This document shows, in pieces, positions 16,333 to 64,000 of a DNA stretch of 64,000 nt. A program made the translations under genes and the position numbers. The notes beneath the pieces are model-generated. The model had not been told where the DNA came from, did no database searches, and saw nothing but the letters and a program-made list of their open reading frames with translations. Within the stretch, counting starts at the first letter, position 1. Every line of letters begins with the position of its first letter. The stretch is from an uncultured Gammaproteobacteria bacterium (GTDB lineage Bacteria > Pseudomonadota > Gammaproteobacteria > Arenicellales > JAANXG01): assembly GCA_947259705.1 (NCBI GenBank), contig CAMYNL010000009.1:2197-66196 (forward strand), read 5' to 3'.

Positions 16333-18576
16333 ATGCGATTTTTTTGTCCGAGTAGAAAATCTCAACGTTTCTGCATGATGCGCGCGATCAGCAAGGGCCT
16401 GGCGGTCGGGGGTGTCTGCGCGCTGCCGTGGTTCGCGAGCGAGGCACGAGCGGCCGAGGCCTGTGTGCCGGACATCCTGATGCGGCCGCCGGCTGCCGAG
16501 GTTCCGCCCGGGGCGGAGGGCCTGCCCATTGAGCTGGAAGGCGACGAGGTCGAATCGGTGGGCAAGGACATCGTCACCATGCGCGGCAATGCGATGCTCA
16601 AGCGCGGGCGCGAGACCCTGACCGGTGACGAGATCAGCTATTACCGTGAGACCGATGAGGTGGAGGCCAGCGGCCAGATTCAGCTGCAGTCGGGGTTCGG
16701 TGACAAGATCACCGCGGACTATATCCGCTTTCAGGTGGAGACCCATATCGGCGAGGCGGAGAACGTGCAGTACCGACTGGCCAAGCGCGATCGCAAACCC
16801 AAGGATCCGGAGCAGGCTTATCTGCAGGCCCGTGGCGCAGCGGAGACGATGTACATGGAGGGTCACGATGTCGCCCGCTTCGAAAATGTCACTTATACCA
16901 CCTGCAACGAGGGCAACGACGACGTCATCGTCTCCGCCAAGGAACTGACCCTAGACCAGGGCACCGGTGAAGGGGTCGCCAAGAACGTGAAGGTGAAGTT
17001 CAAGAATGTGCCCATCTTTTACTTCCCGCGCATCAGCTTTCCCATCAGTGACGAGCGTAAGACCGGTTTCCTGTTCCCCATCTTCGGCGTACAGGAGAAT
17101 TCAGGATTCGTGCTTGCGATCCCCTGGTACTGGAATATCGCGCCCAATTACGACGCTACCATCATCCCGCGCGTGTATACCGACCGCGGCGTGCAGCTCG
17201 GAAGTGAATTCCGTTACCTTACGGAAGGGTCGGAGGGTTATGTCTACGGCGAGTATCTGCCCAAGGACAGCAAGTTCGATGACGACGATCGTGCCGCCTT
17301 CACCTACAAGCACCAGCAGCAGTTCACGCCGCGCTTGAGCGGCAACGTTGACGTGCAGTGGGTATCGGATGAACAGTACTTCGATGATTTCAGTAATGAC
17401 ATCCAGATATCCAGCTCCTCTTTCCTGCCGCAGAGGGCGGAGCTGCTCTACCTGGACAATATCTGGCGCGTGCAGGGGCGGGTGTTCGCCTACCAGAGCG
17501 TGGACGACAACGTCAGCTCATTCAGCGAACCCTATGATCGGTTGCCGCAGCTGCGGGCACGCGCCCGCGTGCCGTGGCGACCGTACGGCCTGCGCATGCA
17601 GGTGGACGGGGAATTGGTGAATTTCGCCCACGACGAGCGTATCGAAGGATGGCGTGCCGATCTCACGCCGGAGATCTACCGCGAGTTCGATACGGTATGG
17701 GGGTTTTTCACCCCCAGGGCGGCATTGCGGTATACCGGCTACAACCTGGACAATGTCGATGCGGGTGACGACGACAGCCCGTCCCGCGCATTGCCGGTGC
17801 TGAGCGTGGATACGGGCCTGTTCTTCGAGCGTCGTTCCAGCTGGCTGGGCAACCCGTTTACCCACACCCTGGAACCGCGGCTGTTCTATGTCTACATTCC
17901 CGAGAAAGACCAGGACGACCTGCCGGTGTTCGACACCAACGAAATCAATCTCAACAACTTTTCCAACGCCTTTCGTGAGAATCGCTTCTTCGGCGCCGAC
18001 CGGGTCGGCGACGCCAACCAGGTCACCGTCGGCCTGACCAGCCGCATGATCGACTCGCAAAATGGTGTGGAATGGATGCGTGGCAGCATCGGCCAGATCT
18101 TCTTCTTCGAGGACCGCGAGGTCACCCTGCCGCCTGGTCGGATCCGTACCGAGGACACCTCGGATTTTCTGGCCGAGGTGCAGGCCAGGTTGACGGCGCA
18201 CTGGACCACCTCAGGTTATCTTCAGTACAACGTGGAGGACAACAATGTCAGGGTGGGCAGGGTCAACCTGGACTACCGCATTGACCCGCGCCGCTTCGTT
18301 GACTTGGAATACCGGTTCACGCGCGATAGCATCGAGCAGGTCGGGCTGCGCGCCCAGTGGCCGATAGGCCCGCGCTGGCAGTTGCTGGTTGAAGAGCTCT
18401 ACTCGATCCAGGACTCGGAGAACCTGTTCACGGAACTGGGGGTCGAATATGACGGCTGTTGCTGGAAGGTGCGCGCATTCGGGCAGCGCCGGGTATTGTC
18501 TGACGAGAGCGTTCGCTATGCATTCATCATGGAACTTGAATTGACGGGATTGGCGCGGGTTCGCGCCGGGATCTAG
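16333..18576 (+). CDS. lptD: LPS-assembly outer-membrane protein LptD
   Basis: 747 aa; signal peptide, OstA N-domain, large beta-barrel, C-terminal CC pair (YDGCCWKV); followed by surA. Confidence 0.95.
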   Translation: MRFFCPSRKSQRFCMMRAISKGLAVGGVCALPWFASEARAAEACVPDILMRPPAAEVPPGAEGLPIELEGDEVESVGKDIVTMRGNAMLKRGRETLTGDEISYYRETDEVEASGQIQLQSGFGDKITADYIRFQVETHIGEAENVQYRLAKRDRKPKDPEQAYLQARGAAETMYMEGHDVARFENVTYTTCNEGNDDVIVSAKELTLDQGTGEGVAKNVKVKFKNVPIFYFPRISFPISDERKTGFLFPIFGVQENSGFVLAIPWYWNIAPNYDATIIPRVYTDRGVQLGSEFRYLTEGSEGYVYGEYLPKDSKFDDDDRAAFTYKHQQQFTPRLSGNVDVQWVSDEQYFDDFSNDIQISSSSFLPQRAELLYLDNIWRVQGRVFAYQSVDDNVSSFSEPYDRLPQLRARARVPWRPYGLRMQVDGELVNFAHDERIEGWRADLTPEIYREFDTVWGFFTPRAALRYTGYNLDNVDAGDDDSPSRALPVLSVDTGLFFERRSSWLGNPFTHTLEPRLFYVYIPEKDQDDLPVFDTNEINLNNFSNAFRENRFFGADRVGDANQVTVGLTSRMIDSQNGVEWMRGSIGQIFFFEDREVTLPPGRIRTEDTSDFLAEVQARLTAHWTTSGYLQYNVEDNNVRVGRVNLDYRIDPRRFVDLEYRFTRDSIEQVGLRAQWPIGPRWQLLVEELYSIQDSENLFTELGVEYDGCCWKVRAFGQRRVLSDESVRYAFIMELELTGLARVRAGI

Positions 18577-43855: not shown

Positions 43856-43995
43856 CGGATATCTTCGCCATGGGGAGACAGGGGCATTGTAATCCACCGC
43901 CGGGGACCGTTGAACACGGATGCACCGGCTGCGTCGGGTCGTGTCGTCGCGCCGCCACCCGTCAATCACCCTGCTGACGGCGACGGCTTCAGCGG

Positions 43996-45111: not shown

Positions 45112-45120
45112 GACGCGGGA

Positions 45121-48653: not shown

Positions 48654-48662
48654 AGCGGCGGA

Positions 48663-49298: not shown

Positions 49299-49349
49299 TT
49301 CAATTTCTCCTGCAATACATGATGTTCAGACTATCGGAAACGCTTGTGT

Positions 49350-50741: not shown

Positions 50742-51274
50742 CAGCCGAGGAAGCTCAGAAACAGGAGCAGCAGCACGGAAGTGAAAATCCAGCAACCGAT
50801 GGTAAACAGTACCCCGAGGCCCATACGTACCTCCAGCGCCTCCTTGAATATGTGCGCGAAAATCAGCAGCAGCCAGACCCGCAGGCCAAGAAGTAACAGG
50901 GTCGGGGTATTGGCGGCGGCGGTCCCCTGGGCATTCACCATCCACTGAGATACCGGCCACATGGCCAACTGCACCAGGGTGTTGCCTGCGAACATCGCGG
51001 AAAGGGTCTGACAAAAGCGTTCGGATTTGAGGGCCAGGCGCAGAATCAGCCAGATGGTCAGCGCAAAGAAAGCATGCTCTGCGATGGCCAGGGGCACGAT
51101 GGGAATCTCCTGTCCGACGACCTGGGTAAGTTGCGAACCCACAACCTCCAGAGCCAGCACGTAGGAGAGCGTGGAGGCGCTCGCCAGCAGCCCGAGCAGC
51201 GCCCAGGAGTATGGCAGGTCCTGCGGTTTGGCCTGTAACAGCGCCAGGTCCACGATGGTCTTCAAGGGATTCAC
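50741..51274 (-). CDS. Hypothetical integral membrane protein
   Basis: Hydrophobic 4-5 TM ORF coupled to mpl. Start uncertain (GTG 51274 proposed; the ORF-track start at 51373 would collide with rnd). Confidence 0.5.
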   Translation of the reverse strand: MNPLKTIVDLALLQAKPQDLPYSWALLGLLASASTLSYVLALEVVGSQLTQVVGQEIPIVPLAIAEHAFFALTIWLILRLALKSERFCQTLSAMFAGNTLVQLAMWPVSQWMVNAQGTAAANTPTLLLLGLRVWLLLIFAHIFKEALEVRMGLGVLFTIGCWIFTSVLLLLFLSFLG

Positions 51275-51372
51275 GGATCGGTTCCGCCGCGGCGATGCAT
51301 GGGGTACGAGGGCCGGATCATAGCAATCGTTGCGATCCCGCTCCAATACGGCGCCGGGGCCGAATTGGTACA

Positions 51373-52533: not shown

Positions 52534-52590
52534 CCGGATGTTCGGTTCCGCCGAGCACAGCCTGTTCAGCCGACCCGCGTTACGCTGGGC

Positions 52591-53571
52591 ATGACGGACC
52601 TGGTCACCGGCGCCAGTGGATTTATCGGCAGCCATCTGGTAGAGGCCTTGGTGTCGCAGCGACGCCCCGTGCGCTGCCTGGTGCGCGACCGGCAGCGATT
52701 GCGGTGGCTGGCGGGACAACCTGTTGAAATCGTCGAGGGAGACTGCGCAAGGCGGGAGACCCTGACGGAGGCCACGTACGGGGTTGATCGAGTGTTCCAT
52801 ATTGCCGGAGCGTCCTGGGCCGCCACCGCAACCGAGTTCTACCGACAGAACGCAACCGGCACCCGCAATCTGCTGCAGGCCTGTGCGTCCAACGCGCCCC
52901 AACTGCGGCGGTTCGTACTGGTGTCCAGCCAGGCCGCCAGCGGACCAGCGAGCGGTCGCGGGACAGTTGGGGAAAACGATCCGCCGCGGCCCGTCAGTGC
53001 CTACGGTGAGAGTAAACTGGCTGCGGAGCGTTATGCACAACAATACCGTGATCGGATCCCGATCACTATAATCCGCCCTTCAACGGTGTACGGACCTAGG
53101 GATCGGGCGTTTTTGCCCTATTTTCGCTTGGTTCGTCGCGGTTTCCTGTTAGAATTTGGCGCTGGCGCGCGCGATGTCAGCTTGTGTCACGTTTCCGATC
53201 TGGTCGCGGGCTTGATGCAGGCGGCCGATAGCCAATCGGCCTCGGGATCGGTATATTTTGTTGCGGACTCAGAACCGTATTCCTGGCAAAGGGTCGAAGA
53301 GATGGTGTGCGGCATCCTGGGGGTCAGCGCAAAACGGTTGATCCTCCCGGGGTGGATGCTCTATGTAATTGGCAGCCTGGGCCAGGTTTTCAGCGCGGTA
53401 AGCCGCGTACCGGTGCAACTTAATCGTGCCCGAGCCGCGGAATTGCTAGAGCGCAGATGGGTGTGCGACACCAGTCTGGCGCGGCGAGAATTGGGCTACG
53501 AGTCAAGAACGACATTAGAGGCTGGACTTCGGCAATTAGTCCGCTGGTATGAACAAGAAAATTGGTTATGA
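52591..53571 (+). CDS. NAD(P)-dependent extended SDR (epimerase/dehydratase/reductase family)
   Basis: 326 aa; TGASGFIGSHL Rossmann motif; catalytic YGESK; ATGA-coupled to the downstream alpha-oxoamine synthase. Confidence 0.85.
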   Translation: MTDLVTGASGFIGSHLVEALVSQRRPVRCLVRDRQRLRWLAGQPVEIVEGDCARRETLTEATYGVDRVFHIAGASWAATATEFYRQNATGTRNLLQACASNAPQLRRFVLVSSQAASGPASGRGTVGENDPPRPVSAYGESKLAAERYAQQYRDRIPITIIRPSTVYGPRDRAFLPYFRLVRRGFLLEFGAGARDVSLCHVSDLVAGLMQAADSQSASGSVYFVADSEPYSWQRVEEMVCGILGVSAKRLILPGWMLYVIGSLGQVFSAVSRVPVQLNRARAAELLERRWVCDTSLARRELGYESRTTLEAGLRQLVRWYEQENWL

Positions 53572-54824
53572 CACACCGGTCACTCGCTAAGCAGGACATT
53601 GTCGGTCGGGTAGATGGTCTCTTGGAAGTTCCGGCGAAGCGCGCCGGCATCTTTGACAAGTGCCGCAAATTCACGCGTGCGCAGGAACTGATGGCGGTCG
53701 GCCTTTATCCGTATTTCCACAAGGTCGAGTCGGCGCAGGAGCCCGAGGTCGTTTGCGACGGGCGCCCGATGATCATGATGAGTTCCAACAATTACCTCGG
53801 GCTCACCAACCATCCCAGAGTCAAGGAAGCGGCGATCGACGCCGTGAGGCGTTATGGCACTGGCTGCGCGGGTTCCCGATTTCTCAACGGCACTCTGGCC
53901 ATACACGAGGAGCTGGAAGACCGTCTGGCAACATTTCTCGGCAAGCAAGCGGCGATCGTCTTCCCGACGGGGTTTCAGGCCAACCTTGGTGCTATTTCCG
54001 CCCTGGTCGGGAAGAATGAACTGATCGTGATCGACAAGATGAATCACGCCAGTATCTTCGACGGTTGCCGTCTGTCTTTCGGCCAGATAAGGAAGTTCCG
54101 GCACAACGACATGCAGGACCTGGAGCGCATCCTGGCCAGCAACGAGGGACGCGGTGCCCTGGTGGTGGTGGATGGCGTGTTCAGTATGGAGGGAGATATC
54201 GCGGATCTGCCGGGGCTGGTCGACGTGTGCGGCCGATATGGCGCCGGCATCATGGTGGATGATGCCCATGGCTTGGGTGTGCTGGGCGAGAACGGGCGCG
54301 GGACCGGCGAGCATTTCGGCATGGAAGATGACATTGATCTCGTCATGGGCACCTACAGCAAGTCCCTGGCAACAATCGGCGGATGCCTGGCGGCAGACAG
54401 TGACGTCATCGATTACCTGAAACACCATGCAAGGTCCCTCATGTTCTCAGCCAGTCTGCCCCCGGCACCGGTGGCGGCTGCGCTGACGGCGCTGGACATC
54501 ATCGAAAGCGAACCTGAACGGCGCGAAAGGTTGTGGCGCAATGCACGTTACCTGGCAGAGGGTTATCGCCAGCTGGGGTTCGATATCGGTACCAGCGAAA
54601 CACCGATCATCCCGGTGATGGTCGGGGACGAGGAGAAGGTGCTGGTGATGTGGCGCCGACTTTTTGATGCCGGAGTTTTCGCCAGCCCGGTGCTCTATCC
54701 GGCGGTACCACCCGGCATGGCACTGATTCGCACGAGCTGCATGGCTACCCACACCGTGACCCATCTGGATCAGGTCCTGGACGTATTCGGCCGGGTCGGT
54801 CGTGACATGGGCCTGCTCAGTTAG
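53568..54824 (+). CDS. Alpha-oxoamine synthase, serine-palmitoyltransferase-like
   Basis: N-terminal FTRAQELMAVGLYPYFHKVES...MMSSNNYLGL; PLP-lysine motif GTYSKSLATIGG (SPT-like rather than BioF/KBL GTxGKA); DDAHGLG; RTSCMATHT. Confidence 0.8.
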   Translation: MTHRSLAKQDIVGRVDGLLEVPAKRAGIFDKCRKFTRAQELMAVGLYPYFHKVESAQEPEVVCDGRPMIMMSSNNYLGLTNHPRVKEAAIDAVRRYGTGCAGSRFLNGTLAIHEELEDRLATFLGKQAAIVFPTGFQANLGAISALVGKNELIVIDKMNHASIFDGCRLSFGQIRKFRHNDMQDLERILASNEGRGALVVVDGVFSMEGDIADLPGLVDVCGRYGAGIMVDDAHGLGVLGENGRGTGEHFGMEDDIDLVMGTYSKSLATIGGCLAADSDVIDYLKHHARSLMFSASLPPAPVAAALTALDIIESEPERRERLWRNARYLAEGYRQLGFDIGTSETPIIPVMVGDEEKVLVMWRRLFDAGVFASPVLYPAVPPGMALIRTSCMATHTVTHLDQVLDVFGRVGRDMGLLS

Positions 54825-54934
54825 CCGATCATCATTGGGCTGGCCTCCTCTCAATTCCCTGCCTTGAAGCGCTGCTCCCGGCCGAGGAGATGGCTTCGGG
54901 CTTGCAGCTTCTCCACCGACCAGGAGGGCGCGTA

Positions 54935-55990
54935 ATGGTCCGGCGCAGCTTCCTATCGTGTGCGGTAATAGTTCTGCTCGCGGTCTGCGGACCGTTGCCG
55001 GCCTCGGAGGACGATCTCCGTCCGCAGTTGCTTCAGGACGAGCTCTATACCGAGGGCTGGGACTACTATTTTCTCTTCGACGACGGCACCTGGGTCACCG
55101 TGCAGACCTTTATCAGCAACTTCGGCCCCGGGAATCATCGCGGGCTGGTGATCGGCACGATCACGAAAGCTGATGACGAATCCATAGTTATCAAGAACGG
55201 GCGCCCGAGGGAAAAATGGCAGTTCTCCGAGTCCGGATATGACTTCAAACTCGCCCGACATCATCTGATGGGCGAGTTCCCCGACTACCGGCTGCGGCTC
55301 CGCAACCGTCGTGGTGAGCTGGAGATTGATCTGACCGCTACGGCCCCGCCATGGCGGCCGATGACTGGACAGGTCTCGGAGGAACGGCACTACGTATCCA
55401 TGTTTCTGACCCAGCTGCGTGCCGAGGGGCGCTACCGTTCGGGGGGCGATGGCGATGCTGAAGCGCCCTGGCGACGTTTGCAGGGGGGGGTGGGTTACGC
55501 AGTGCGTTACCTCAACGCTAAGTCGTTGTCGAAGGTCGCATCCGGGTGGCTGAGGCTGGCGCCTTGGCAGGCCGAGGGGGATGACAAGCCTCTATTGCTG
55601 CTGCTCACACAACCCGATGGACAGCAAACCAATCATATGGCCCTGCTCACCGGAGACGTCATCCGCTGGCAAGGCAGTGGATTTTCGGTAAGTTACGAGG
55701 AAGCCGTCAGCATGGTGCCCAACGGTCACCTGATCCCGCAGACAATATCACTGGACGTGGAGCATGGAGGAACCTCCATCTCGGGCACGGTCCGGGTGCG
55801 GCAACTGTTGCAGCGATTTGATTTCGTTGGTGAACTTAAGAACCTGGAGCGGATTTTCGTTCGCTTCATTAATACGCCCATCCACTATCGCTACCTTGCC
55901 GACTACGATTTCCAGGTAAGAGACAGCGGGGGCGTGCGCCGCTTGACGGGAAGCGGCTTTGCGGAGTACATGACCCTGAAATACCAGTGA
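54935..55990 (+). CDS. Secreted hypothetical protein (beta-rich; possibly AttH/CrtC lipocalin-like)
   Basis: Trimmed to MVRRSFLSCAVIVLLAVCGPLPASE (signal peptide) with an AGGAGG RBS. EGWDYYFLFDDGTWVTVQTFISNFG is reminiscent of the AttH-like fold; the family call is tentative. Confidence 0.55.
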   Translation: MVRRSFLSCAVIVLLAVCGPLPASEDDLRPQLLQDELYTEGWDYYFLFDDGTWVTVQTFISNFGPGNHRGLVIGTITKADDESIVIKNGRPREKWQFSESGYDFKLARHHLMGEFPDYRLRLRNRRGELEIDLTATAPPWRPMTGQVSEERHYVSMFLTQLRAEGRYRSGGDGDAEAPWRRLQGGVGYAVRYLNAKSLSKVASGWLRLAPWQAEGDDKPLLLLLTQPDGQQTNHMALLTGDVIRWQGSGFSVSYEEAVSMVPNGHLIPQTISLDVEHGGTSISGTVRVRQLLQRFDFVGELKNLERIFVRFINTPIHYRYLADYDFQVRDSGGVRRLTGSGFAEYMTLKYQ

Positions 55991-56035
55991 TGGCCGCGCC
56001 GCTGGTCGAAACAACGGGCTGTTGAAGACCTCGAA

Positions 56036-58495
56036 GTGAGTACATTCGACGACGATTCCATCTCCGACAGGCCACGATGGGCCGGTGCCGTCGCAAGCGG
56101 CGTCATCCGCGGCTACCTGTTAATACTGCTCGCAACCGGGGTTTCCGGATACTACAGCTTCGATCTGGCCAAGTCGCTGAAACTGAACACTGACATCGTT
56201 TCTTTGATGCCGGAGGGTGTGCCCAGCGTCGACAACCTGCAGCGGGTAATCGAGAAGACCGGCGGTTATGCGAATGTCATGGTGCTGGTGGAGTCCACGG
56301 ATCCGGACGCCGCGCTGCGATTTCTGGATGACCTGCGCGACGAGCTGCTGCAATTGGATTGGGTAAGCAGTGCTGAGTACGCGGAGGACACGGCGGTTTT
56401 TCAGCGTAATCGGCTGCTCTATGTCGATGTGGAAGACCTTCGGGTAATCAACGAGCGACTGGCCGCGCGTATAGACTACGAAAAGAAGAACATCACTTTC
56501 AGCGTAGAGGACACGCCGGTTGAAATCACCATACGTGGCGCTGAGAGAAGGCTACCTTCGCTGGATTTCCAGGACATCAAGAAGAAGTACGAAGGCGAGC
56601 AAACCGATACGAAAAAGCAACATGTATTCCGTAACGAGTCTGGAGACCTGACCATCATGGTCGTGCTCCCGCGAGGCAGCACGACGAACGTTTCATATTC
56701 GCGCGAGGTGATCGCTGACATCGACCGACTGGCCAGACAAGTCGATCCGGCGAGTTATCACCCAGAAATGACGGTACTCATCGGCGGTCGTGTCAAGAAC
56801 CTGGTCGCCAAGTTCGATGCCATCATGTCTGATATCCGCGGCAGCGGCCTGTGGTCAATCGCCAGCATCCTGCTGGTGGTGGTGATCTATTACCGCCGTC
56901 TGATGGCGATCTTGTACATAGGGTTGCCGCTTGTGATCGCGTTCCTCTGGACCTTCGGGATAACCCAGGTCTACCTCGGCGGCCTTAATCTCATCACTAT
57001 TTTTTTGGTGCTTATCCTGTTCGGCCTGGGTATAGATTTCGGTATACACAACCTGGCTCGATACGATGAGGTGCGCCGTGATGGCGGCACCATGCGGGAC
57101 GCGCTGGAAACGGTGTACTCGCGCACCGGTCGCGCATCCCTGCTCGCGGGCGTCACCACCGTGGTCGGCTTTTATTCCCTGATGACGACGGACTTCAGGG
57201 CATTTTATGAGTTCGGATTCATCGCCGGCACCGGCGTGGCACTGGCACTGGTCTCCATGTATCTGGTTTTCCCGTCCCTCATGGTGCTGGCGGAGAAGAC
57301 ACGGATCTACCGGGTAATGCGCCGCGATGACGAGAACGCGGGCAAGACCGCCGGCCCGATGCCTTTTGCGCTTCCAATCATTATTGTGGGCACAATCTTG
57401 TGTCTCGTGAGCATCATGCTGGTACCGCAGCTCCGGTTCGAGGATGATTTCGACAAGATCAACACCCAGGTACGGGAGATAAGCAGCCTGAACGGGAAGA
57501 TCAAGCAGGTTTTTCCGCTGAGGTCGGACCGCGCGGTCGTATTTGTGGACACCCTGGAGGACGTCAGCGCCGTGGTGCAGGAAGTCGAAAGAATAAAGCA
57601 GCAGCGCCCCCCGGAAGAAGCCACCATCGAGAAGGTCAAGTCTATCTACAGTGTGGTCCCCAGCTCTGCGGACCAGGAAGACAGATTGCGGGAGATCGAA
57701 CGAATCGATGAGCAGATCCGCGAGGCTGTGGAGATGCTGGAGCAGTTCGGCGAAAAAGACGACGATCGCAAGAAGGAGCTGCAGGAACTGCGCGAGAACT
57801 TCGGAGTGTCTGCACTGCAGCCGAAGGATCTGCCCCCGGCCCTGCAACAGATCTATACAGGTGTGCCGGGATCGGGTGGATACCTGGTCTACATATTCAA
57901 CCTCAAACCGACCTCGAAACTGGAGGACGCACAGGCATTCGTCGATGACATCCGCGAGATTAGGATCAACGGCAAGACCTATCATCCCGCTACCGAGGCG
58001 ATGGTATTCGTCGATATGCTGAATCTGATGAAGGATGATGCCACAGGGGCCGTTGCAGCGGTGCTCGCCGCGATATGCCTGGTCCTGCTGCTCGCTACGC
58101 GGGAATTCAAGAGCGCCGTTTTGGTGCTGATACCGGTGCTGGTGGGGATGTTGTGGATGCTCGCAATCATGGCCGCCCTCGGCATCCGGCTCAACATATT
58201 CAACATGGTCGTGCTGCCCACCGTCCTCGGTATCGGAATCGACAACGGCATCCATATCTATCATCGATTTTGCGAAGAAGGACGTCACCATGTACGGCAT
58301 GTAATCAGGACCACTGGCGGCGCTGCCTTCCTGACCACTTTGACCACCATGCTTGGATTCGCCGGGACCCTCACTGCCTCCAACCAGGGCCTGCAGTCGC
58401 TCGGCCTGGTGGCTTGCATAGGCCTGTTTGCCTGTATGATCAGCTCGCTGACGGTGTTTCCGGCGCTCCTGCAGTCCATCGAAAGGCGTTCCTGA
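56036..58495 (+). CDS. MMPL/HpnN-like RND-superfamily lipid exporter
   Basis: 819 aa; two 6-TM bundles, each after a large soluble loop. Duplicated signature LFGLGIDFGIHNLARY / VLGIGIDNGIHIYHRF. Confidence 0.82.
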   Translation: MSTFDDDSISDRPRWAGAVASGVIRGYLLILLATGVSGYYSFDLAKSLKLNTDIVSLMPEGVPSVDNLQRVIEKTGGYANVMVLVESTDPDAALRFLDDLRDELLQLDWVSSAEYAEDTAVFQRNRLLYVDVEDLRVINERLAARIDYEKKNITFSVEDTPVEITIRGAERRLPSLDFQDIKKKYEGEQTDTKKQHVFRNESGDLTIMVVLPRGSTTNVSYSREVIADIDRLARQVDPASYHPEMTVLIGGRVKNLVAKFDAIMSDIRGSGLWSIASILLVVVIYYRRLMAILYIGLPLVIAFLWTFGITQVYLGGLNLITIFLVLILFGLGIDFGIHNLARYDEVRRDGGTMRDALETVYSRTGRASLLAGVTTVVGFYSLMTTDFRAFYEFGFIAGTGVALALVSMYLVFPSLMVLAEKTRIYRVMRRDDENAGKTAGPMPFALPIIIVGTILCLVSIMLVPQLRFEDDFDKINTQVREISSLNGKIKQVFPLRSDRAVVFVDTLEDVSAVVQEVERIKQQRPPEEATIEKVKSIYSVVPSSADQEDRLREIERIDEQIREAVEMLEQFGEKDDDRKKELQELRENFGVSALQPKDLPPALQQIYTGVPGSGGYLVYIFNLKPTSKLEDAQAFVDDIREIRINGKTYHPATEAMVFVDMLNLMKDDATGAVAAVLAAICLVLLLATREFKSAVLVLIPVLVGMLWMLAIMAALGIRLNIFNMVVLPTVLGIGIDNGIHIYHRFCEEGRHHVRHVIRTTGGAAFLTTLTTMLGFAGTLTASNQGLQSLGLVACIGLFACMISSLTVFPALLQSIERRS

Positions 58496-58525
58496 GGGTC
58501 GCCCGGATCGGTTGGGTGGCCGCCC

Positions 58526-59794
58526 ATGGCAAGAAGCAGACAGAGAGTGAGACAAATTTCCGGAGATCATCGCGCCACCCGCGTGCTTTTTCTGAACAGC
58601 TGTGTGAATGGCGGCGGAGCCGGCCGCAGTCTCGCGGCGCTTCTGAGCGTGCCGCAAGAAGGAATGGAATCCTGGGTGGTGATGCCCGAACCCGGAGTCG
58701 TTGCCGCACACCTGCGAGGGGTTGCCCATATCGAGTATGTGCCGGAATTCGTCGAGCGACTCGGACGGTCGCCCTATGCATGGCCGGACCGGCTCCGGAT
58801 GCAATGGCTGCACGGGCCCGCCAGTGCGTATGCACTGGCGCTTGCGACCCGCAAGATCATTGCGCTGGCGCGGCGCATCAAGCCCGACGTGATTCACTGC
58901 AACCATATGCTCGCCAAGCCGATCGGTACAATGGTCGGCGCTGCCGTGGGCATTCCGGTGGTGTTTCATTCCCGCGCCGTCCATCAGATCCCCATTGACG
59001 GCGCCTTTTACAGCTGGTTGGGAGCCCGCAAGGCGGTGAGCCGGATCATCTGTAATTCGGCAGCCAGCGCGGAGGTGTACCGGCGGCGCAGCGCCGAGAA
59101 GATTACGATCATCCCGAACAGTATCGATGTCTCTGTCTTCAGCCGGCGGCAGACGGCGCCGCGCCTGCGCTTGGAGTGCGGACTCGCCGCTGACGATTTC
59201 GTGGTGGGGTTCGTGGGCCGCTTGCACCCGAAAAAGGGGCTGGACTGGCTATTGCGGTCGTTCGCTTCTCTTTGTCGCGGACATCGCAATTCGGTGTTGG
59301 TGGTGCTGGGTGATAATGATGGCGGCCTGCACTATGACGCCGGGAAGGGCAGCCGGGATCTTGCCGCGGCGCTGGGGATCGGTGAGCGGGTGATCTTCAC
59401 CGGGTTTCGCGATGATGTCCGTCCCTACATGGCCGACTTCGACGTTCTGGCCTTTCCGTCGCGACTGCCGGAGTCTTTCGGCCGGGTGATCCTCGAGGCG
59501 ATGGCACTGGAGGTGCCAGTCGTGGTCGCGGCTCATGGCGGCGCGATCGAGGTGGTGGAAGATGGCCGACAGGGCCTGTGGGTGGAGGTAGAGGACGAGC
59601 CAGGGTTGGCCGACGCGCTCGAGCAGCTGGCCAAAGACGCAGAGCTGCGCCGGCGCATGGGCAGGGCGGGCCGCGAGCGCGTTGCGGCGCTTTACGATGT
59701 CGCGCCGGTCGCCAGGCGGGTGTTCGGGGTGCTGGCGAATGCGGCCCGGGACTGCGGCCCCTTGCGGCGCAGCCTCCCCGCCAGCGAAGGTTAG
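58526..59794 (+). CDS. Glycosyltransferase family 4 (GT-B, Glycos_transf_1)
   Basis: 422 aa; E-x7-E region PSRLPESFGRVILEAMALEVPVV; GRLHPKKG motif. Confidence 0.85.
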   Translation: MARSRQRVRQISGDHRATRVLFLNSCVNGGGAGRSLAALLSVPQEGMESWVVMPEPGVVAAHLRGVAHIEYVPEFVERLGRSPYAWPDRLRMQWLHGPASAYALALATRKIIALARRIKPDVIHCNHMLAKPIGTMVGAAVGIPVVFHSRAVHQIPIDGAFYSWLGARKAVSRIICNSAASAEVYRRRSAEKITIIPNSIDVSVFSRRQTAPRLRLECGLAADDFVVGFVGRLHPKKGLDWLLRSFASLCRGHRNSVLVVLGDNDGGLHYDAGKGSRDLAAALGIGERVIFTGFRDDVRPYMADFDVLAFPSRLPESFGRVILEAMALEVPVVVAAHGGAIEVVEDGRQGLWVEVEDEPGLADALEQLAKDAELRRRMGRAGRERVAALYDVAPVARRVFGVLANAARDCGPLRRSLPASEG

Positions 59795-60606
59795 ATCCGA
59801 CCCGCCATACTGCCCAGGGAAACAGGTGTCAGGCCGCGCGCCCGCAGCCCCTCGAGCATGGCGGGGAGCGCCGTCACCAGGCTGTCCCGGGAACCCATTG
59901 CGCCGGGCGGATAGCCGTCGTGCATCACCACCACGTCGCCGCTCGCGGCCCTCGACAGCAGGCGTTCCAACAGTTCTTCGGGGGGGGGGTTCTGGACGTC
60001 CCAGATCGGGTAACCGTACCCGACCAGGCGCAGCGAGCGCCGCCGCAACTCCGCGTGCAGCATTGGGTTTTTGTATCCCTTGGGACAGCGAAAAAACCGC
60101 GGGCTCACCTGGGTCGCATCCTCGATGCTGTGTTGACAGCGGTCCAGTTCCTCGGCGATCTGCCGACGGGACGCGAACATCAGGTTGCGGTGGGTTTGGG
60201 TATGATTGCCGAGTGTATGGCCCCTGGCCACGATGGCCCTGGCCAGTTCAGGCGCCCGGACTACGTTTTCGCCGATACAAAAGAAACTCGCCTTGGCCCC
60301 GTATTGCTCCAGGATCTCCAGTATCTCCCGCGTGTAGGGCTCCACCGGTCCGTCGTCGAAGGTCAACGCAATCGGAGAACGGTTGTCACTCCCGGGCGGG
60401 ATGCGGACGATAGCGGGGGCGAACAGATTCACCCGGGGATGGAACGCGTCCAACGCCAGTACGGCCAGGATCGCAGAGAACGATCCCATCACTGCGAGCA
60501 CCCAGCCGGGAGCGCCCACGATACCGGTAAGCACGATTATCGCCGCCCAACCCGACAGATAAAGGGCGACGTAAACAAGTATCTTTAGTCGCGCGGCGAA
60601 GGGCAT
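59791..60606 (-). CDS. Membrane-anchored NodB-type polysaccharide/carbohydrate deacetylase
   Basis: Trimmed to MPFAARLKILVYVALYLSGW... (two TM helices); NodB motifs TFDDGP and NHTQTH. Its stop overlaps the GT4 stop by 4 nt (convergent). Confidence 0.82.
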   Translation of the reverse strand: MPFAARLKILVYVALYLSGWAAIIVLTGIVGAPGWVLAVMGSFSAILAVLALDAFHPRVNLFAPAIVRIPPGSDNRSPIALTFDDGPVEPYTREILEILEQYGAKASFFCIGENVVRAPELARAIVARGHTLGNHTQTHRNLMFASRRQIAEELDRCQHSIEDATQVSPRFFRCPKGYKNPMLHAELRRRSLRLVGYGYPIWDVQNPPPEELLERLLSRAASGDVVVMHDGYPPGAMGSRDSLVTALPAMLEGLRARGLTPVSLGSMAGRI

Positions 60607-60655
60607 ATCGGAATGGTGCGGGCGCGAAGGCCGGATGCAAAGGGTAGAGCGTGTC

Positions 60656-61732
60656 CTATGGTCTGGCACCGGGGTCGGGCAGCAGCTGGGGACCACGCCA
60701 GCGATCGAACATGCTCATCTGATGGACGCACGCCAGGGTACAGGTCGGGCTGCATTCCTTGCGGGTCTTGTACTCCCGGTTCAGGTCAGCGGGCGTGTAC
60801 TCGGTGACAGGAATATTTGGATAGCCACGGCGCTGGGAGCACCAGTGTACCCTGCCTTCCTCACAGATATAGAGGTACCTGGCGCCCGCGCGGCACTGCC
60901 AGTCGTTGGATCGACCGAAGATAAGATTACGCTGGTAAAGACGATAATTCAGCCTGTGAGTCAGGGATTTCGAGACCCGGGTGACCCTGCGATATACAGC
61001 TAGCTGCCTGTCGTTGAGCGGTTTGAGCAGCCCGTTGTGATCATGCAGAACGCCAACCGAGTGGTAAAAGCCGTATCCGGCGGCCGTGTCGGCGACGGCC
61101 AGCGCATCTTCTGTACGTTCCTCGCTAACGCCCAGGACCGAGTTGATGTTCACCTTGAAGCGCGCGTGCTCCGCGAGCAGGGCCAGTTTTTTGTCCACCG
61201 AATTGAGACTTTTCATGGACACCTCGTCCGGCTCGAGATTATCGATGCTGATCTGCATCTCCTGCAGACCGGCGTCGTTCAGCGCTTCAATGCGCTCCTG
61301 GTTGAGTCGGAAGCCGTTGGTGATCATGGTGGCGATCATTTTTCGTCGGCGGATCGCCCGCACCACCTCCGCCAACTGCGGATGCAGCAGCGGTTCGCCG
61401 CCCGTCAGCGTGACTGCGGCCGTATTCAGGGCGGCCAGTGCGTCCACCTGGCGCAGCAACTGGTCCGTGGCCACCGGGGGTGAGAAATCGTCGTACTCGT
61501 TGCAGTAGCCGCAGGCCAGGTTGCAGCGTCGGGTAACGACCACCTGAGCCAGCAGGGGCGTGTGCCTGGTAAGGGTCGCGCGGCGCAGAAAGCGTGCCGC
61601 AGACATCGCATTGTCGACTCTGCGTGAGAGGCTGGATCGCGTCATGAAATCAAATAACTCCGTAGGTCCGACGGCGCGGGTCGCCGGGATGTCTGGTTTC
61701 GAAGGCTTGAAAAATCTTGCTTCGGCCCCCAT
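60656..61732 (-). CDS. Radical SAM protein with Cys-rich (SPASM-like) C-terminus
   Basis: CNLACGYCNEY (CxxxCxxC), GGEPLLHP; C-terminal cysteines CRAGARYLYICEEGRVHWC...CSPTCTLAC. Start may be an internal Met (61645 or later). Confidence 0.85.
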   Translation of the reverse strand: MGAEARFFKPSKPDIPATRAVGPTELFDFMTRSSLSRRVDNAMSAARFLRRATLTRHTPLLAQVVVTRRCNLACGYCNEYDDFSPPVATDQLLRQVDALAALNTAAVTLTGGEPLLHPQLAEVVRAIRRRKMIATMITNGFRLNQERIEALNDAGLQEMQISIDNLEPDEVSMKSLNSVDKKLALLAEHARFKVNINSVLGVSEERTEDALAVADTAAGYGFYHSVGVLHDHNGLLKPLNDRQLAVYRRVTRVSKSLTHRLNYRLYQRNLIFGRSNDWQCRAGARYLYICEEGRVHWCSQRRGYPNIPVTEYTPADLNREYKTRKECSPTCTLACVHQMSMFDRWRGPQLLPDPGARP

Positions 61733-61787
61733 GTGACAAGGGCGCGTATTATCGGTGAGGGGATCGGGACGCGCAAGCTCAACTCGT

Positions 61788-61824
61788 TGGAAAACTTGGG
61801 TTTTCCAGGAAAATTTGTTATAAT
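61788..61824. promoter_or_regulatory. Overlapping palindromes plus TATAAT box in an AT-rich divergent promoter region
   Basis: TGGAAAA-cttggg-TTTTCCA overlapping TTTTCCAGGAAAA (61788-61813), then TATAAT at 61819-61824. Confidence 0.4.
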
Positions 61825-61943
61825 TTTCTATTGGTCTGAAGCTCGATCCCCGCGCGCAGGGCTGAGCGACGAAATCGAGTGGGCCGGTTTGTAGCAGGGC
61901 GATTGCAAACGAACAGATTTAACTATCGCGGCATCGGGGACTT

Positions 61944-62600
61944 ATGACTAACATTCTGAAAATGTTGCCTGTTTTGATTATCGGCGCAAGTTTTGCCGGC
62001 GCCGCCGCCGGCTCGGAATGCGCGACGCGACCCGTCGCCATGACGGAAGACGGCGTGGCCGTGGTTGACGCCAAGCAGAAGGTGGAGATCGAGGCCGACG
62101 AAATCACCTTCCCGCGCCGGAACGTGGTCAAGCTGCGGGGTTATACCCAGTTGATTCGCGGCGGCCAGCGCGTCTACGCCGACGAACTGGTTTACGACAA
62201 GGCGCACGGTGAGGTCGAGGCCCGGGGCGTGGTGAAGTTCCAGTCACCCCAGGGCGACGAGATCCGGACCTCGGTGCTCCGTTACGACATCAATCAGAGC
62301 AGGGCCGTGTCCGGGCCGGCGAACTTCACCATCGCCGCGCGTAAGACGAGCACCCTCGGATCCGGTGACAGCGCAGTCAACGCCCACGGCACCGCCGATC
62401 GCGTTGTCTTCGAACGCGGCGACGTCATGAGGCTCGAGAACGCGGAGGTGACCACCTGTCTGGACGGCAAGGACGACATCACTTTTACCGCCCAGGACAT
62501 CAAGGTCGACCTGAACAAGGGTATACGCACCGCGCGCCGCGCCAAGGTGCAGATTCTAGTCCCCGAGCGCCATTCGAAACTGAAGGGGATGGTCAACTAA
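61944..62600 (+). CDS. Stand-alone paralogue of the LptD N-terminal (OstA beta-jellyroll) domain
   Basis: 218 aa; signal peptide. Aligns by eye (about 30-35% identity) to residues ~55-290 of the lptD product in this window, e.g. VEIEADEI/IELEGDEV, EVEARG/EVEASG, LENAEVTTCLDGKDD/FENVTYTTCNEGNDD. Ends where the LptD barrel would begin. Confidence 0.75.
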   Translation: MTNILKMLPVLIIGASFAGAAAGSECATRPVAMTEDGVAVVDAKQKVEIEADEITFPRRNVVKLRGYTQLIRGGQRVYADELVYDKAHGEVEARGVVKFQSPQGDEIRTSVLRYDINQSRAVSGPANFTIAARKTSTLGSGDSAVNAHGTADRVVFERGDVMRLENAEVTTCLDGKDDITFTAQDIKVDLNKGIRTARRAKVQILVPERHSKLKGMVN

Positions 62601-62735
62601 CCCCCGCCCGCAATGCTGCGGACGGTGCAGTGCCCCACACGCGGCCCGGGTGCCTCGCGCCCGTCGGGGCAAGATGGGTGCCGCACTGCAACGGGATCGG
62701 CACTCCCCCGCGGATTTCGTCACGACTGATCTGTT

Positions 62736-63794
62736 ATGGTAGACCATGTTGACGTATCCGCAGCCGCCCTGCGCAGGTCCGTCGCAGACCTGTTCGACCC
62801 CAAGCCCGCGATCTACTGGCTTGATCTTTGCTTGACCGGGGCCACGGGCTGGCTTGCATTCTCGTTGGCGGTCGCGGTGGCCCCGGGCAGTCCGGCGTGG
62901 GTCGTCTGGACCCTGCTGGCGATACTCGCCTTGTATCGGGCCGCGGTCTTCACCCACGAGCTGGTGCACATTCGCAAGGAGCGGCTACCCGGGTTCCGCA
63001 CCGCCTGGAACCTGATCTGCGGCGTACCGTTGCTGGCCCCCTCCTTCATGTACGACGGCGTGCACCAGGAACACCATTTTCGCAGCCGGTACGGTACCTC
63101 CCGCGACGGGGAATATCTGCCCTTTGGCACACCGCCGCGATCGCGCATCCTGGTTTATTTCGCCTCCCACCTGCTGCTGCCGCCGCTGGCCGTGATCAGG
63201 TTCGGCCTGCTGGCACCATTGTCGCTGTTATCCCAATCCTGGCGGCGGGCGCTGCTGGAACGGGCCTCATCCCTTTCTATCGATCCGGGTTATCATCGCT
63301 CGGTACCCGACCCTGTCCCGGCGAGTTGGGCGCGGCAGGAGTTTGCCTGCGCCGCGTTCGTGTGGGCGGTGGCGGTATCCGTGGTCTCTGGACAGCTGCC
63401 GTTGTCGGTGTTGATGCAGTATTACGTGACCTTGCTGGGAATACTGTTGTTCAACGCGATACGCACGCTGGCCGCCCACCGTTACCGTAATCGGGACCGA
63501 ACGCTCTCGTTTTCGGAGCAACTGGCGGATTCGATCAACGTCACCGGTGGTGGTCTGGCCACGGTCCTGCTGGCACCGGTGGGACTGCGCTACCACGCTC
63601 TGCACCACCTGTTTCCCACCATGCCATACCACAGCCTGGGTGCGGCGCATCGCCGGCTGCTTGAGAAACTCCCAGCGGGTTCCGCTTATCATGAGACCCT
63701 GCGCAGGAACATTCCTCAGGCATTGCGTGAACTGTGGCGCGCCGCGTCGACGATCAACCGCGCAGCGCAGCCTGAACCGCCCGCGGCCTCGTAG
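62736..63794 (+). CDS. Membrane fatty-acid/sphingolipid-type desaturase family protein
   Basis: 352 aa; three His boxes HELVH, HQEHH and HALHH; four or more TM segments. Confidence 0.85.
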   Translation: MVDHVDVSAAALRRSVADLFDPKPAIYWLDLCLTGATGWLAFSLAVAVAPGSPAWVVWTLLAILALYRAAVFTHELVHIRKERLPGFRTAWNLICGVPLLAPSFMYDGVHQEHHFRSRYGTSRDGEYLPFGTPPRSRILVYFASHLLLPPLAVIRFGLLAPLSLLSQSWRRALLERASSLSIDPGYHRSVPDPVPASWARQEFACAAFVWAVAVSVVSGQLPLSVLMQYYVTLLGILLFNAIRTLAAHRYRNRDRTLSFSEQLADSINVTGGGLATVLLAPVGLRYHALHHLFPTMPYHSLGAAHRRLLEKLPAGSAYHETLRRNIPQALRELWRAASTINRAAQPEPPAAS

Positions 63795-64000
63795 CTATGT
63801 CGCGGAACGGAGTTCGTTCACGAGTGCGCTGTTCACCGCTGTTTGCTGTCGTTGCAGATGCCAAAGCAGCATGTTGAGCACCACGAGTTCCAGTAGGAAA
63901 TAGACCAGCGGTACCTGGAGCAGGCATAGAGCGGACAACGCCAGCGTGCGTTTGTTGGCGCTCAACCACGACCAATTTCGCACCGCTGGCTGGTTGAACT
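63795..64000 (-). CDS. 3' end of a membrane protein gene continuing beyond the window
   Basis: The reverse frame is open from the window edge to the stop at 63795 (...FNQPAVRNWSWLSANKRTLALSALCLLQVPLVYFLLELVVLNMLLW...). The ORF track shows only the part from an internal GTG. Confidence 0.35.
   Translation of the reverse strand, partial: FNQPAVRNWSWLSANKRTLALSALCLLQVPLVYFLLELVVLNMLLWHLQRQQTAVNSALVNELRSAT

What the first reader, a model, noticed from the sequence alone, without database searches (positions are those of the whole stretch)
61944..62600. Orphan LptD N-terminal beta-jellyroll paralogue that keeps both LptD N-domain cysteines
The 218-aa product aligns along its whole length with the N-terminal domain of the bona fide LptD at 16333-18576. 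It stops (KVQILVPERH...) where LptD enters its barrel (KVKFKNVPIFYFP).

It retains a Cys just after the signal peptide (GSECATRP, compare AEACVPD) and the TTC Cys (TTCLDGKDD, compare TTCNEGNDD). In LptD these cysteines form disulfides with the barrel C-terminus, but this protein has no barrel.

It sits in a locus with an MMPL exporter. A soluble OstA-fold protein there could act as a dedicated periplasmic lipid bridge or acceptor for a non-LPS lipid, or could dock onto Lpt components.

Alternatively, it may be a remnant of a duplicated lptD.
Basis: partly seen in the sequence, partly recalled or inferred. Interest (0 to 1): 0.68.

Follow-up and report, generated by a model that had tools for sequence, protein, structure and literature searches.

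The report
Stand-alone LptD N-domain in sphingolipid island
A small secreted protein copied from the lipid-carrying front end of the outer-membrane LPS inserter LptD is conserved in a cluster of sphingolipid-type synthesis and export genes in uncultured marine-type Gammaproteobacteria, and probably helps carry that lipid across the periplasm, a step nobody has yet explained.

Summary
ORF 61944-62600 (+) encodes a 218-aa secreted protein. Residues 32-205 align without gaps to the N-terminal beta-jellyroll of the window's own LptD (hhalign 99.9%, E=9e-37). The AlphaFold model matches solved LptD N-domains best.

It is not a remnant:
- About 60 homologues of 205-250 aa share a family-specific tail (P-x-R-H...IN).
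- dN/dS is 0.13.
- No barrel remnant lies downstream.
- Mature proteins keep exactly the two LptD N-domain cysteines.

Outside the family, the nearest relatives are full-length LptDs, not LptA.

It is a sphingolipid-type lipid island made of:
- an SDR;
- a serine palmitoyltransferase;
- a secreted AttH-like double lipocalin;
- an HpnN/BstA-like RND pump;
- a variable head-group cassette;
- a radical SAM gene, the orphan itself, and a desaturase.

The orphan co-occurs with the Spt-RND module in every genome where this could be checked. All are uncultured Arenicellales-like Gammaproteobacteria.

Most likely it is a disulfide-stapled periplasmic lipid carrier or bridge for this lipid. That is inferred, not shown. 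A 2026 preprint reports that no LptA or LptD duplication had been found in any sphingolipid locus, so this is a new variant of a known kind.

The parts
61944..62600 (+). Orphan LptD N-domain (beta-jellyroll or 'beta-taco') gene, 218 aa. Residues 1-23 look like a Sec signal peptide, with AxA-type sites in homologues. C26 lies near the mature N-terminus. A variable linker spans 27-47, the beta-taco spans 48-204 and contains C172, and the family-specific tail P207-x-R-H210...N218 ends in a short helix.
   Evidence: dN/dS 0.13
61788..61824 (+). Putative control region of the orphan gene. It holds a perfect palindrome TGGAAAAC-TTGG-GTTTTCCA (61788-61807), which overlaps the -35 position of an extended -10 element (TG at 61816-61817, TATAAT at 61819-61824).
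   Evidence: Read from the sequence. The 14-mer AAAACTTGGGTTTT is unique in the window. Among 35 loci it is found only upstream of the orphan gene, in 5 of them. The upstream spacer is about 92% identical to L025, against about 78% identity at synonymous sites. The function is inferred.
60656..61732 (-). Radical SAM enzyme (MoaA/PqqE-like core, no family assignment). It is transcribed divergently from the orphan and is its most frequent neighbour in related loci.
62736..63794 (+). Membrane fatty-acid desaturase or hydroxylase family protein with three His boxes (HELVH, HQEHH, HALHH). It lies 135 nt downstream on the same strand, with no terminator-like site between.
   Evidence: directly downstream of the orphan in L006-L009, L012, L013, L019, L031
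56036..58495 (+). RND exporter of the MMPL/HAE3 type, with a sterol-sensing-like domain. Its best family matches are HpnN and BstA, both below their cut-offs. The best solved relative is HpnN.
54890..55990 (+). Secreted protein with an AttH-like double-lipocalin fold and no Pfam or NCBIfam match. It is encoded between Spt and the RND pump, and its start is probably Met16 (54935).
53562..54824 (+). Serine-palmitoyltransferase-like alpha-oxoamine synthase.
   Evidence: NCBIfam SerpalmtaseCFB 549 bits, below its cut-off of 640. The best solved relatives are the Sphingobacterium Spt structures 3a2b and 8guh at 449 bits, against at most 323 bits for BioF/KBL-type chains.
52591..53571 (+). NAD-dependent SDR (HpnA/3-beta-HSD-like). 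It overlaps the Spt start, and is a candidate keto-reductase for the long-chain base or ceramide.
   Evidence: The assignment as reductase of the Spt product is inferred.
58526..60696 (.). Head-group cassette of this genome: a GT4 glycosyltransferase (58526-59794, +) and a membrane-anchored NodB-type deacetylase (59791-60696, -). Relatives carry instead CDP-alcohol phosphatidyltransferases, a Wzx-like flippase, a radical SAM/SPASM enzyme and an Asp/Arg-hydroxylase-family protein.
16333..18576 (+). Bona fide lptD, 747 aa, with N-domain plus barrel and cysteines 44, 191, 709 and 710. It is followed by surA. This is the paralogue whose N-domain the orphan resembles.

Best explanation
The gene encodes a soluble periplasmic beta-jellyroll ('beta-taco') protein. 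It arose once, by duplication of the 5' part of lptD, in an Arenicellales-like gammaproteobacterial lineage.

**Proposed structure.**
- After signal-peptide cleavage, its only two cysteines most likely form one intramolecular disulfide. They are the equivalents of E. coli LptD C31 and C173.
- This disulfide would tie the flexible N-terminal segment to the C-terminal end of the taco.
- A new short C-terminal tail and helix replaces the barrel junction.

**Proposed function.**
- The protein belongs functionally to an accessory envelope-lipid island. The island makes a serine-palmitoyltransferase-dependent (sphingolipid-type) lipid with variable head groups.
- The protein shields that lipid's acyl chains in its hydrophobic groove during periplasmic transit.
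- It acts downstream of the island's HpnN/BstA-like RND pump, possibly together with the secreted AttH-like lipocalin.
- It could work as a self-associating bridge, or as an adaptor that docks edge-to-edge onto the native Lpt jellyrolls.

**Shown:** homology, fold, family conservation, purifying selection, cysteine pattern, and genomic association.

**Inferred:** secretion, the disulfide, lipid binding, substrate identity, partners, and direction of transport.
For: **Homology and fold.**
- Gapless 175-column profile match to LptD N-domains.
- Solved LptD N-domains are the top fold matches.
- In an exhaustive search of 1.84 billion representatives, 11 short family representatives score at E<=1e-30. 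The next hits are full-length LptDs matched over their first ~230 residues.
- The family forms one clade among LptD N-domains in a neighbour-joining tree.

**It is a working gene.**
- dN/dS is 0.13.
- The tail P-x-R-H is conserved in 64-68 of 69 members. The distance from Cys2 to the C-terminus is fixed at 47-52 residues.
- GC3 is 0.82, against 0.79 for lptD, so composition is native.

**Lipid context.**
- Spt-like enzyme: 449 bits to a solved Spt.
- HpnN-like RND pump.
- Secreted AttH-like double lipocalin.
- Head-group enzymes and a desaturase.

**Linkage to the Spt-RND module.**
- The RND gene lies within about 11 kb upstream of the orphan in the window and in L001, L002, L004, L005, L006, L008 (through L028), L010, L014, L016, L020 and L033. 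In L020 the two are directly adjacent.
- It is on the same contig 97 kb away in L009/L027, and in the same MAG in L011/L024.

**Precedent.**
- Lpt paralogues (LptF2, LptG2, LptC2) in the Caulobacter sphingolipid locus are needed when sphingolipids are made.
- An MmpL next to spt in Myxococcus has been proposed as an alternative route (bioRxiv 10.64898/2026.04.12.717747).
- LptD C31 and C173 pair with the adjacent C724 and C725, so they lie close together (bioRxiv 10.1101/2025.04.10.648201).
Against: - There is no direct evidence of expression, secretion, disulfide formation, lipid binding or partners.
- All loci come from one clade of related MAGs. Conserved gene order may therefore reflect shared ancestry rather than selection for linkage.
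- In L007, L012, L013, L018 and L019 no RND gene lies within 10 kb, and the rest of those genomes could not be read.
- In L009 the two are 97 kb apart, and that module lacks the AttH-like gene.
- RND pumps of this type have no jellyroll domain to dock a taco. A new interface would be needed.
- No outer-membrane acceptor is encoded in the island.
- No ceramide synthase (bCerS) was identified in the island, so the final lipid is not established.
Confidence: 0.5

Rival explanations
1. It is an accessory of the LPS pathway itself. Having kept the edges of the LptD N-domain, it binds the C-terminal edge of LptA. It then either serves as an extra or alternative bridge unit for LPS, perhaps modified LPS, or caps LptA bridges to tune LPS flow. 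Its position in the lipid island is positional only, next to mltA.
For: - Both ends of the taco stay similar to LptD.
- The gene always sits at the mltA-proximal edge of the island, and stays there when the Spt-RND module is elsewhere.
- Some cassette genes (GT4, deacetylase, Wzx-like flippase, LpxO-family hydroxylase) are also typical of LPS modification.
Against: - The family is small and restricted to one clade: 11 representatives among 1.84 billion. That does not fit a core LPS function.
- Its immediate neighbours are always lipid or head-group genes of the island type: radical SAM, desaturase, CDP-alcohol transferases.
- It co-occurs with Spt-RND wherever that could be tested.
- Whether these genomes have a normal lptA could not be checked.
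Confidence: 0.2
2. It is a periplasmic lipid-holding or lipid-sensing protein that is not part of a transport route. For example, it may present the lipid to periplasm-facing modifying enzymes, or report lipid load to a regulator.
For: - The tightest neighbours are enzymes (radical SAM, desaturase, CDP-alcohol transferases) rather than the pump.
- The orphan-desaturase pair persists without an adjacent pump.
- A conserved operator-like palindrome upstream suggests dedicated regulation.
Against: - Every characterised protein with this fold (LptA, LptC, LptD-N, LptF/G domains) is a lipid conduit.
- Desaturases and radical SAM enzymes act on the cytoplasmic side of the membrane.
- No regulator is conserved next to the gene.
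Confidence: 0.15
3. It is a decaying fragment left by a duplicated lptD and has no function.
For: It has only the N-domain, and its Pfam score is marginal (21.0 against the cut-off of 20.4).
Against: - About 60 intact homologues of constant length share a conserved tail of their own.
- dN/dS is 0.13 and 0.22.
- No barrel remnant is found at E<=10 in the window or E<=0.01 in the loci. Only 135 nt separate it from the next gene.
- The model is a well-folded taco.
Confidence: 0.02

Closest known systems
N-terminal beta-jellyroll ('beta-taco') domain of LptD (Pfam PF03968 region of the LPS-assembly protein)
   Same: - Sequence homology is clear: hhalign 99.9%, a gapless 175 columns.
- The fold is the same.
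- The two cysteines sit at the same positions, and an N-terminal signal peptide is present.
- The nearest relatives in an exhaustive search are LptDs.
   Different: - There is no barrel and no C-terminal Cys-Cys pair to bond with.
- A family-specific 13-residue tail and helix stands in place of the hinge.
- It is encoded in a Spt-RND lipid island rather than next to surA.
LptA (periplasmic LPS bridge protein, TIGR03002)
   Same: It is a small secreted stand-alone jellyroll. A free protein with both edges exposed could, like LptA, associate head-to-tail (inference from the fold).
   Different: - It scores 16.5 bits against a cut-off of 71.7.
- LptA structures cover only about a third of the model (TM on query 0.32).
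- It is not in an lptC-lptA-lptB setting.
- Phylogenetically it falls among LptD N-domains.
- It has two conserved cysteines.
LptF2/LptG2/LptC2 paralogues in the Caulobacter crescentus sphingolipid locus (bioRxiv 10.64898/2026.04.12.717747)
   Same: These are Lpt-machinery paralogues encoded inside a sphingolipid locus and implicated in sphingolipid export.
   Different: - Those are inner-membrane components that use LptB.
- The authors report no LptA or LptD/E duplication in any sphingolipid locus.
- Here the paralogue is of the LptD N-domain, and the energising component in the island is an RND pump, not an ABC transporter.
RND-based envelope lipid shuttles with periplasmic helpers: HpnN (hopanoids) and BstA-BstB-BstC (sterols)
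   Same: - The island's pump gives its best family matches to HpnN and BstA, and its best solved relative is HpnN.
- Secreted proteins with hydrophobic-ligand folds are encoded beside it.
   Different: - Pump scores are far below both family cut-offs (305 against 752, and 205 against 1400).
- The helpers here have a jellyroll and an AttH-like double-lipocalin fold. I recall BstB/BstC as different folds, but this was not tested.
- The substrate implied by the locus is Spt-derived, not a triterpenoid.

Membership tests
LptD (LPS-assembly protein) | N-terminal beta-jellyroll homologous to LptD N-domain | tested here: met
   BLASTP E=7e-25; hhalign 99.94%; Foldseek top hits are LptD
LptD (LPS-assembly protein) | C-terminal 26-stranded beta-barrel (Pfam PF04453) | tested here: not met
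   No PF04453 match. The protein ends 13 residues after the homology stops. No barrel remnant was found downstream by tblastn.
LptD (LPS-assembly protein) | Four cysteines giving two inter-domain disulfides (C31-C724 and C173-C725 in E. coli) | tested here: not met
   Only the two N-domain cysteines exist in the mature protein. The bona fide LptD in the window has all four.
LptD (LPS-assembly protein) | Whole-protein score at or above the NCBIfam equivalog cut-off | tested here: not met
   NF002997 28.9 bits against 683; NF003358 25.3 against 944
LptD (LPS-assembly protein) | Complex with the plug lipoprotein LptE | not testable with these tools
   No complex prediction or interaction data were available.
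LptA (TIGR03002) | Score at or above the family cut-off | tested here: not met
   16.5 bits against 71.7
LptA (TIGR03002) | Secreted stand-alone jellyroll | tested here: met
   Signal-peptide-like N-terminus, read from the sequence. All-beta taco model. Cleavage was not tested.
LptA (TIGR03002) | Encoded in the lptC-lptA-lptB cluster | tested here: not met
   The neighbours are a radical SAM enzyme and a desaturase. The window has no other OstA-like ORF.
OstA-like / LptD_N domain superfamily (Pfam PF03968) | Pfam gathering score | tested here: met
   21.0 bits against 20.4, which is marginal. The best stretch, residues 64-118, did not pass the E-value on its own.
OstA-like / LptD_N domain superfamily (Pfam PF03968) | Beta-jellyroll fold with a hydrophobic groove that binds lipid acyl chains | tested here: inconclusive
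   The fold is met. Groove chemistry and lipid binding could not be examined because no coordinates were accessible.
Sphingolipid-locus Lpt paralogues (LptF2/G2/C2 type) | Encoded in a locus with serine palmitoyltransferase | tested here: met
   Spt-like gene at 53562-54824. The linkage is conserved.
Sphingolipid-locus Lpt paralogues (LptF2/G2/C2 type) | Homology to LptF, LptG or LptC | tested here: not met
   The closest relatives are LptD N-domains. LptC structures rank below LptD and LptA.
Sphingolipid-locus Lpt paralogues (LptF2/G2/C2 type) | Required when sphingolipids are made | not testable with these tools
   Needs genetics.

The most novel reading that the evidence does not exclude
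This is the missing periplasmic leg of a bacterial sphingolipid export route. [quoted passage not shown] The route would be either independent of the Lpt machine or would plug into LptD. It would be the first LptA/LptD-type duplication dedicated to a non-LPS lipid, and a hybrid of RND and Lpt-bridge architectures.
Probability: 0.35. Interest if true: 0.82.

Novelty: new variant of a known kind. Interest (0 to 1): 0.66.

Why it matters
**The open question.** How bacterial sphingolipids cross the periplasm is unknown. The group that found LptF/G/C paralogues in the Caulobacter sphingolipid locus wrote in 2026 that no duplication of LptA or LptD/E had been found in any sphingolipid locus. They also predicted that other taxa use MmpL-type routes.

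**What this family offers.** It supplies exactly such a duplication, sitting in a Spt-RND island. That gives a concrete and testable candidate for the periplasmic step.

**Wider points.**
- The lipid-conduit module of LptD can be detached from its barrel and reused.
- The two 'inter-domain' cysteines are kept even without their barrel partners. This bears on how the LptD N-domain folds and oxidises.

**Limit.** All carriers seen so far are uncultured, so tests would need heterologous expression.

Tried and rejected
- **Pseudogene or remnant.** Rejected on family conservation, the conserved tail, dN/dS, and the absence of barrel remnants.
- **Lipoprotein or membrane-anchored form.** No lipobox precedes C26. 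Homologues have AxA-type signal-peptidase sites 3-5 residues before the cysteine. This was read by eye, with no predictor available.
- **ORF 54890-55990 as the bacterial ceramide synthase.** Rejected. It has a signal peptide and an AttH-like double-lipocalin fold. No reference bCerS sequence was available, so the acyltransferase of the pathway remains unidentified.
- **Sequence search of the PDB.** Neither the orphan nor its profile finds LptD. Only fold and profile-profile comparisons do.
- **Short sub-threshold hits in the representative search.** These turned out to be fragments of ordinary LptDs, not further orphan families.
- **A more distant homologue of the pump** (P0296, 49% identity). 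It stands alone, with no Spt or orphan nearby, so the module is clade-specific.
- **Rfam scan of 51000-64000.** Nothing found.
- **Spacer downstream of the orphan.** It folds no better than shuffled sequence.
- **PDB searches with the desaturase and the radical SAM enzyme.** Uninformative.
- **Palindrome elsewhere in the island.** Not found upstream of any other island gene, so it gives no evidence of co-regulation with the Spt operon.

Full report
**1.

- ORF 61944-62600 (+) encodes 218 aa.
- BLASTP against the window's LptD (16333-18576) aligns residues 17-203 with LptD 34-222 at 28% identity, E=7e-25.
- A profile of the orphan family, compared with a profile of 16 full-length LptDs, gives 99.94% probability and E=8.6e-37. 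The match covers 175 columns with no gap, orphan 32-205 to LptD 51-224.
- Similarity stops exactly before LptD's 'NVPIFYFP' hinge into the barrel.
- Both cysteines are present: C26 (codon 62019-62021) and C172 (codon 62457-62459).
- The window's LptD has the canonical four mature cysteines at 44, 191, 709 and 710. In E. coli these form C31-C724 and C173-C725 (bioRxiv 10.1101/2025.04.10.648201).
- Pfam LptD_N scores just above threshold, 21.0 against 20.4 bits.
- NCBIfam LptD models score 28.9 and 25.3 bits, and LptA scores 16.5. All are far below their cut-offs.

**2. Fold**

- An AlphaFold2 model built on a 21-sequence alignment has mean pLDDT 77.7 and pTM 0.71.
- Residues 1-23 and 31-41 have low confidence. 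Strands run continuously from 48 to 204, and a short helix spans 211-217.
- Foldseek against the PDB puts LptD chains first (9ia0, 5iv9, 4q35, 8h1s; E 5e-8 to 4e-7; TM on the query 0.56-0.62).
- LptA follows (TM on the query about 0.32), then LptC.
- Plain sequence searches of the PDB do not find LptD.

**3. It is a family, not a remnant**

- A word-indexed search found 62 homologues, nearly all 205-250 aa.
- An exhaustive profile search of 1.84 billion representatives found 11 representatives at E<=1e-30, all short. A score gap follows (144 to 119 bits), and then come full-length LptDs of 720-850 aa matched over their first ~230 residues.
- Short hits below the gap are fragments of ordinary LptDs.
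- Family members share a tail absent from LptD. P207 is present in 68 of 69 and H210 in 64 of 69. The distance from the second cysteine to the C-terminus is 47-52 residues in the 60 members where it could be measured.
- Mature proteins carry exactly two cysteines. Any extra cysteines lie in signal peptides.
- Against a 93%-identical homologue, dN/dS is 0.13 (dS 0.25). Against a 65%-identical homologue it is 0.22.
- tblastn with the LptD barrel finds nothing downstream of the orphan, in the window or in the related loci. Only 135 nt separate the stop codon from the next gene.
- GC and GC3 match lptD.
- In a neighbour-joining tree the orphans form one clade among LptD N-domains. They are about as similar to LptD N-domains (26%) as diverse LptD N-domains are to each other (30%) (no bootstrap).
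- I conclude there was a single old duplication of the 5' part of lptD, followed by maintenance under selection.

**4. The locus is a sphingolipid-type lipid island**

Upstream to downstream, the window carries:

| Gene | Coordinates | Evidence |
|---|---|---|
| RNase D | 51211-52533 | |
| NAD-dependent SDR | 52591-53571 | |
| Alpha-oxoamine synthase (Spt-like) | 53562-54824 | best family serine palmitoyltransferase, 549 bits, below its 640 cut-off. Best solved relatives are Sphingobacterium Spt at 449 bits, against at most 323 for BioF/KBL-type chains and 281 for cysteate acyltransferase |
| Secreted 351-366-aa protein, no family match | 54890-55990 | model pLDDT 81; matches the AttH double-lipocalin fold 2ich, E 5e-11 |
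| MMPL/HAE3 RND pump | 56036-58495 | best matches HpnN and BstA; best solved relative HpnN |
| GT4 glycosyltransferase and NodB-type deacetylase | 58526-60696 | |
| Radical SAM enzyme | 60656-61732, minus strand | |
| The orphan | 61944-62600 | this report |
| Membrane desaturase or hydroxylase | 62736-63794 | |

**5. Conservation of the neighbourhood**

- Sixteen loci from species-representative genomes are all uncultured Gammaproteobacteria or Arenicellales MAGs. Six more came from metagenomes.
- The full island has this order: RNase D | SDR-Spt-AttH-RND-[variable cassette]-radical SAM-orphan-[desaturase, or CDP-alcohol transferase plus rSAM/SPASM]-MltA-AAA-VWA.
- That arrangement recurs in the window and in L001, L002, L004, L005, L006, L010, L014, L016, L020 and L033. 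In L020 the pump is directly upstream of the orphan.
- The variable cassette holds CDP-alcohol phosphatidyltransferases, a Wzx-like flippase, rSAM/SPASM and an Asp/Arg-hydroxylase-family protein. In this window it holds GT4 plus a deacetylase instead.
- L008 at first seemed to lack the pump. It is 10.6 kb upstream, beyond unrelated inserted genes.
- In L009 the SDR-Spt-RND core, without the AttH-like gene, lies 97 kb from the orphan-desaturase pair on the same contig.
- In one MAG the two halves are on different contigs (L011 and L024).
- For L007, L012, L013, L018 and L019 no pump lies within 10 kb, and the rest of those genomes could not be read.
- So the orphan and the Spt-RND module co-occur in every genome where this could be tested. 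All of these genomes are related, so the cases are not independent.

**6. Mechanism**

Shown:
- It is a secreted-looking, well-conserved, LptD-derived beta-taco.
- It has two conserved cysteines and its own C-terminal cap.
- It is genetically tied to a Spt-RND lipid island.

Inferred:
- **(a) Signal peptide.** It is cleaved. Homologues have AWA, AWS or AAA sites 3-5 residues before the first cysteine.
- **(b) Disulfide.**
  - The two cysteines form one intramolecular disulfide.
  - In LptD their partners are the adjacent C724 and C725, so C31 and C173 must lie close together.
  - From my own knowledge, a C31-C173 species is an early oxidation intermediate of E. coli LptD (Chng et al. 2012, not read here).
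  - The 17-35-residue linker between Cys1 and the first strand is long enough to run back along the taco.
- **(c) Tail.** The tail and helix cap the end that abuts the barrel in LptD.
- **(d) Groove.** The groove carries the acyl chains of the island's lipid after extraction by the RND pump, perhaps handed over by the AttH-like protein.
- **(e) Delivery.** Delivery is through self-association or through docking on native Lpt jellyrolls.

I give this overall reading 0.5.

Rival readings:
- An LPS-pathway accessory or cap: 0.2.
- A non-transport lipid holder or sensor: 0.15.
- A dead remnant: 0.02.

**7. Comparison with what is known**

- The protein is not an LptD. It has no barrel, only two of the four cysteines, and scores far below the cut-offs.
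- It is not an LptA by score, context or phylogeny.
- It is a member of the OstA-like/LptD_N fold superfamily.
- The closest functional precedent is the set of LptF2/G2/C2 paralogues in the Caulobacter sphingolipid locus.
  - That preprint states that no duplications of LptA or LptD/E were found in sphingolipid loci of any organism.
  - It also suggests MmpL-based routes in other taxa.
- Full-text searches found no description of a stand-alone LptD N-domain or of such an island.
- I therefore rate it a new variant of a known kind.

**8. Limits**

- No expression data exist.
- No model coordinates were accessible, so neither the cysteine distance nor the groove chemistry could be checked.
- No complex prediction was possible.
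- Whole genomes could not be read, so the presence of canonical lptA and the full phyletic pattern remain untested.
- The acyltransferase of the pathway, and hence the lipid itself, remain unidentified.

Noticed in passing
window 61788-61824 (also L010 9672, L011 217, L025 1292, L032 2398, L035 1558): A perfect palindrome TGGAAAAC-TTGG-GTTTTCCA overlaps the -35 position of an extended -10 element (TGtTATAAT) upstream of the orphan. The exact core AAAACTTGGGTTTT occurs nowhere else in the window or in 574 kb of related loci. It appears only upstream of orphan genes, always on their strand. It is probably an operator for an unknown regulator.
   Followed up: partly
window 54890-55990 (+): A secreted protein with no Pfam or NCBIfam match lies between Spt and the RND pump. 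Its model adopts the AttH-like double-lipocalin fold (top hit 2ich). The same fold is shared by CrtC-type hydratases, fungal Diels-Alderases and a 25-phosphosteroid lyase. The family is small (10 hits), and the gene is absent from the module in L027.
   Followed up: partly
window 58526-60696; L023 14098-20482; L001 7235-8560 and 10700-12995: The middle of the island is a swappable head-group cassette. This window has GT4 plus a NodB-type deacetylase, which suggests a glucosamine-type head group. Relatives have CDP-alcohol phosphatidyltransferases, a Wzx-like flippase, rSAM/SPASM and an Asp/Arg (LpxO-family) hydroxylase.
   Followed up: partly
window 60656-61732 (-): This radical SAM enzyme has only a generic MoaA/PqqE-like core and no family assignment. 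It is the most constant neighbour of the orphan (adjacent in about 17 loci) and is usually transcribed divergently from it. Its function is unknown.
   Followed up: no
window 62736-63794 (+): This membrane desaturase or hydroxylase has His boxes HELVH, HQEHH and HALHH and sits directly downstream of the orphan with no terminator-like site. As I recall, the box pattern resembles sphingolipid delta-4 desaturases, but this was not tested. No solved relative was found.
   Followed up: no
window 52591-54824: The SDR and Spt-like genes overlap by a few bases (53562-53571). The same overlap is seen in all related loci, which suggests translational coupling. No ceramide synthase candidate was recognised in the island.
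   Followed up: no
window 41435-52533; L023, L024, L027, L028: The left flank of the island has conserved gene order. It runs HerA-like DUF87 ATPase, GTP cyclohydrolase I, (response regulator/Hpt), DsbA-like, Mur-ligase-family protein, RNase D. On the right the island ends at MltA-AAA-VWA. The island therefore looks like an insertion between RNase D and MltA.
   Followed up: partly
L029 (P0296): A 49%-identical homologue of the RND pump, in another gammaproteobacterial MAG, stands alone next to DNA polymerase I. It has no Spt, AttH-like or orphan gene within 10 kb.
   Followed up: no
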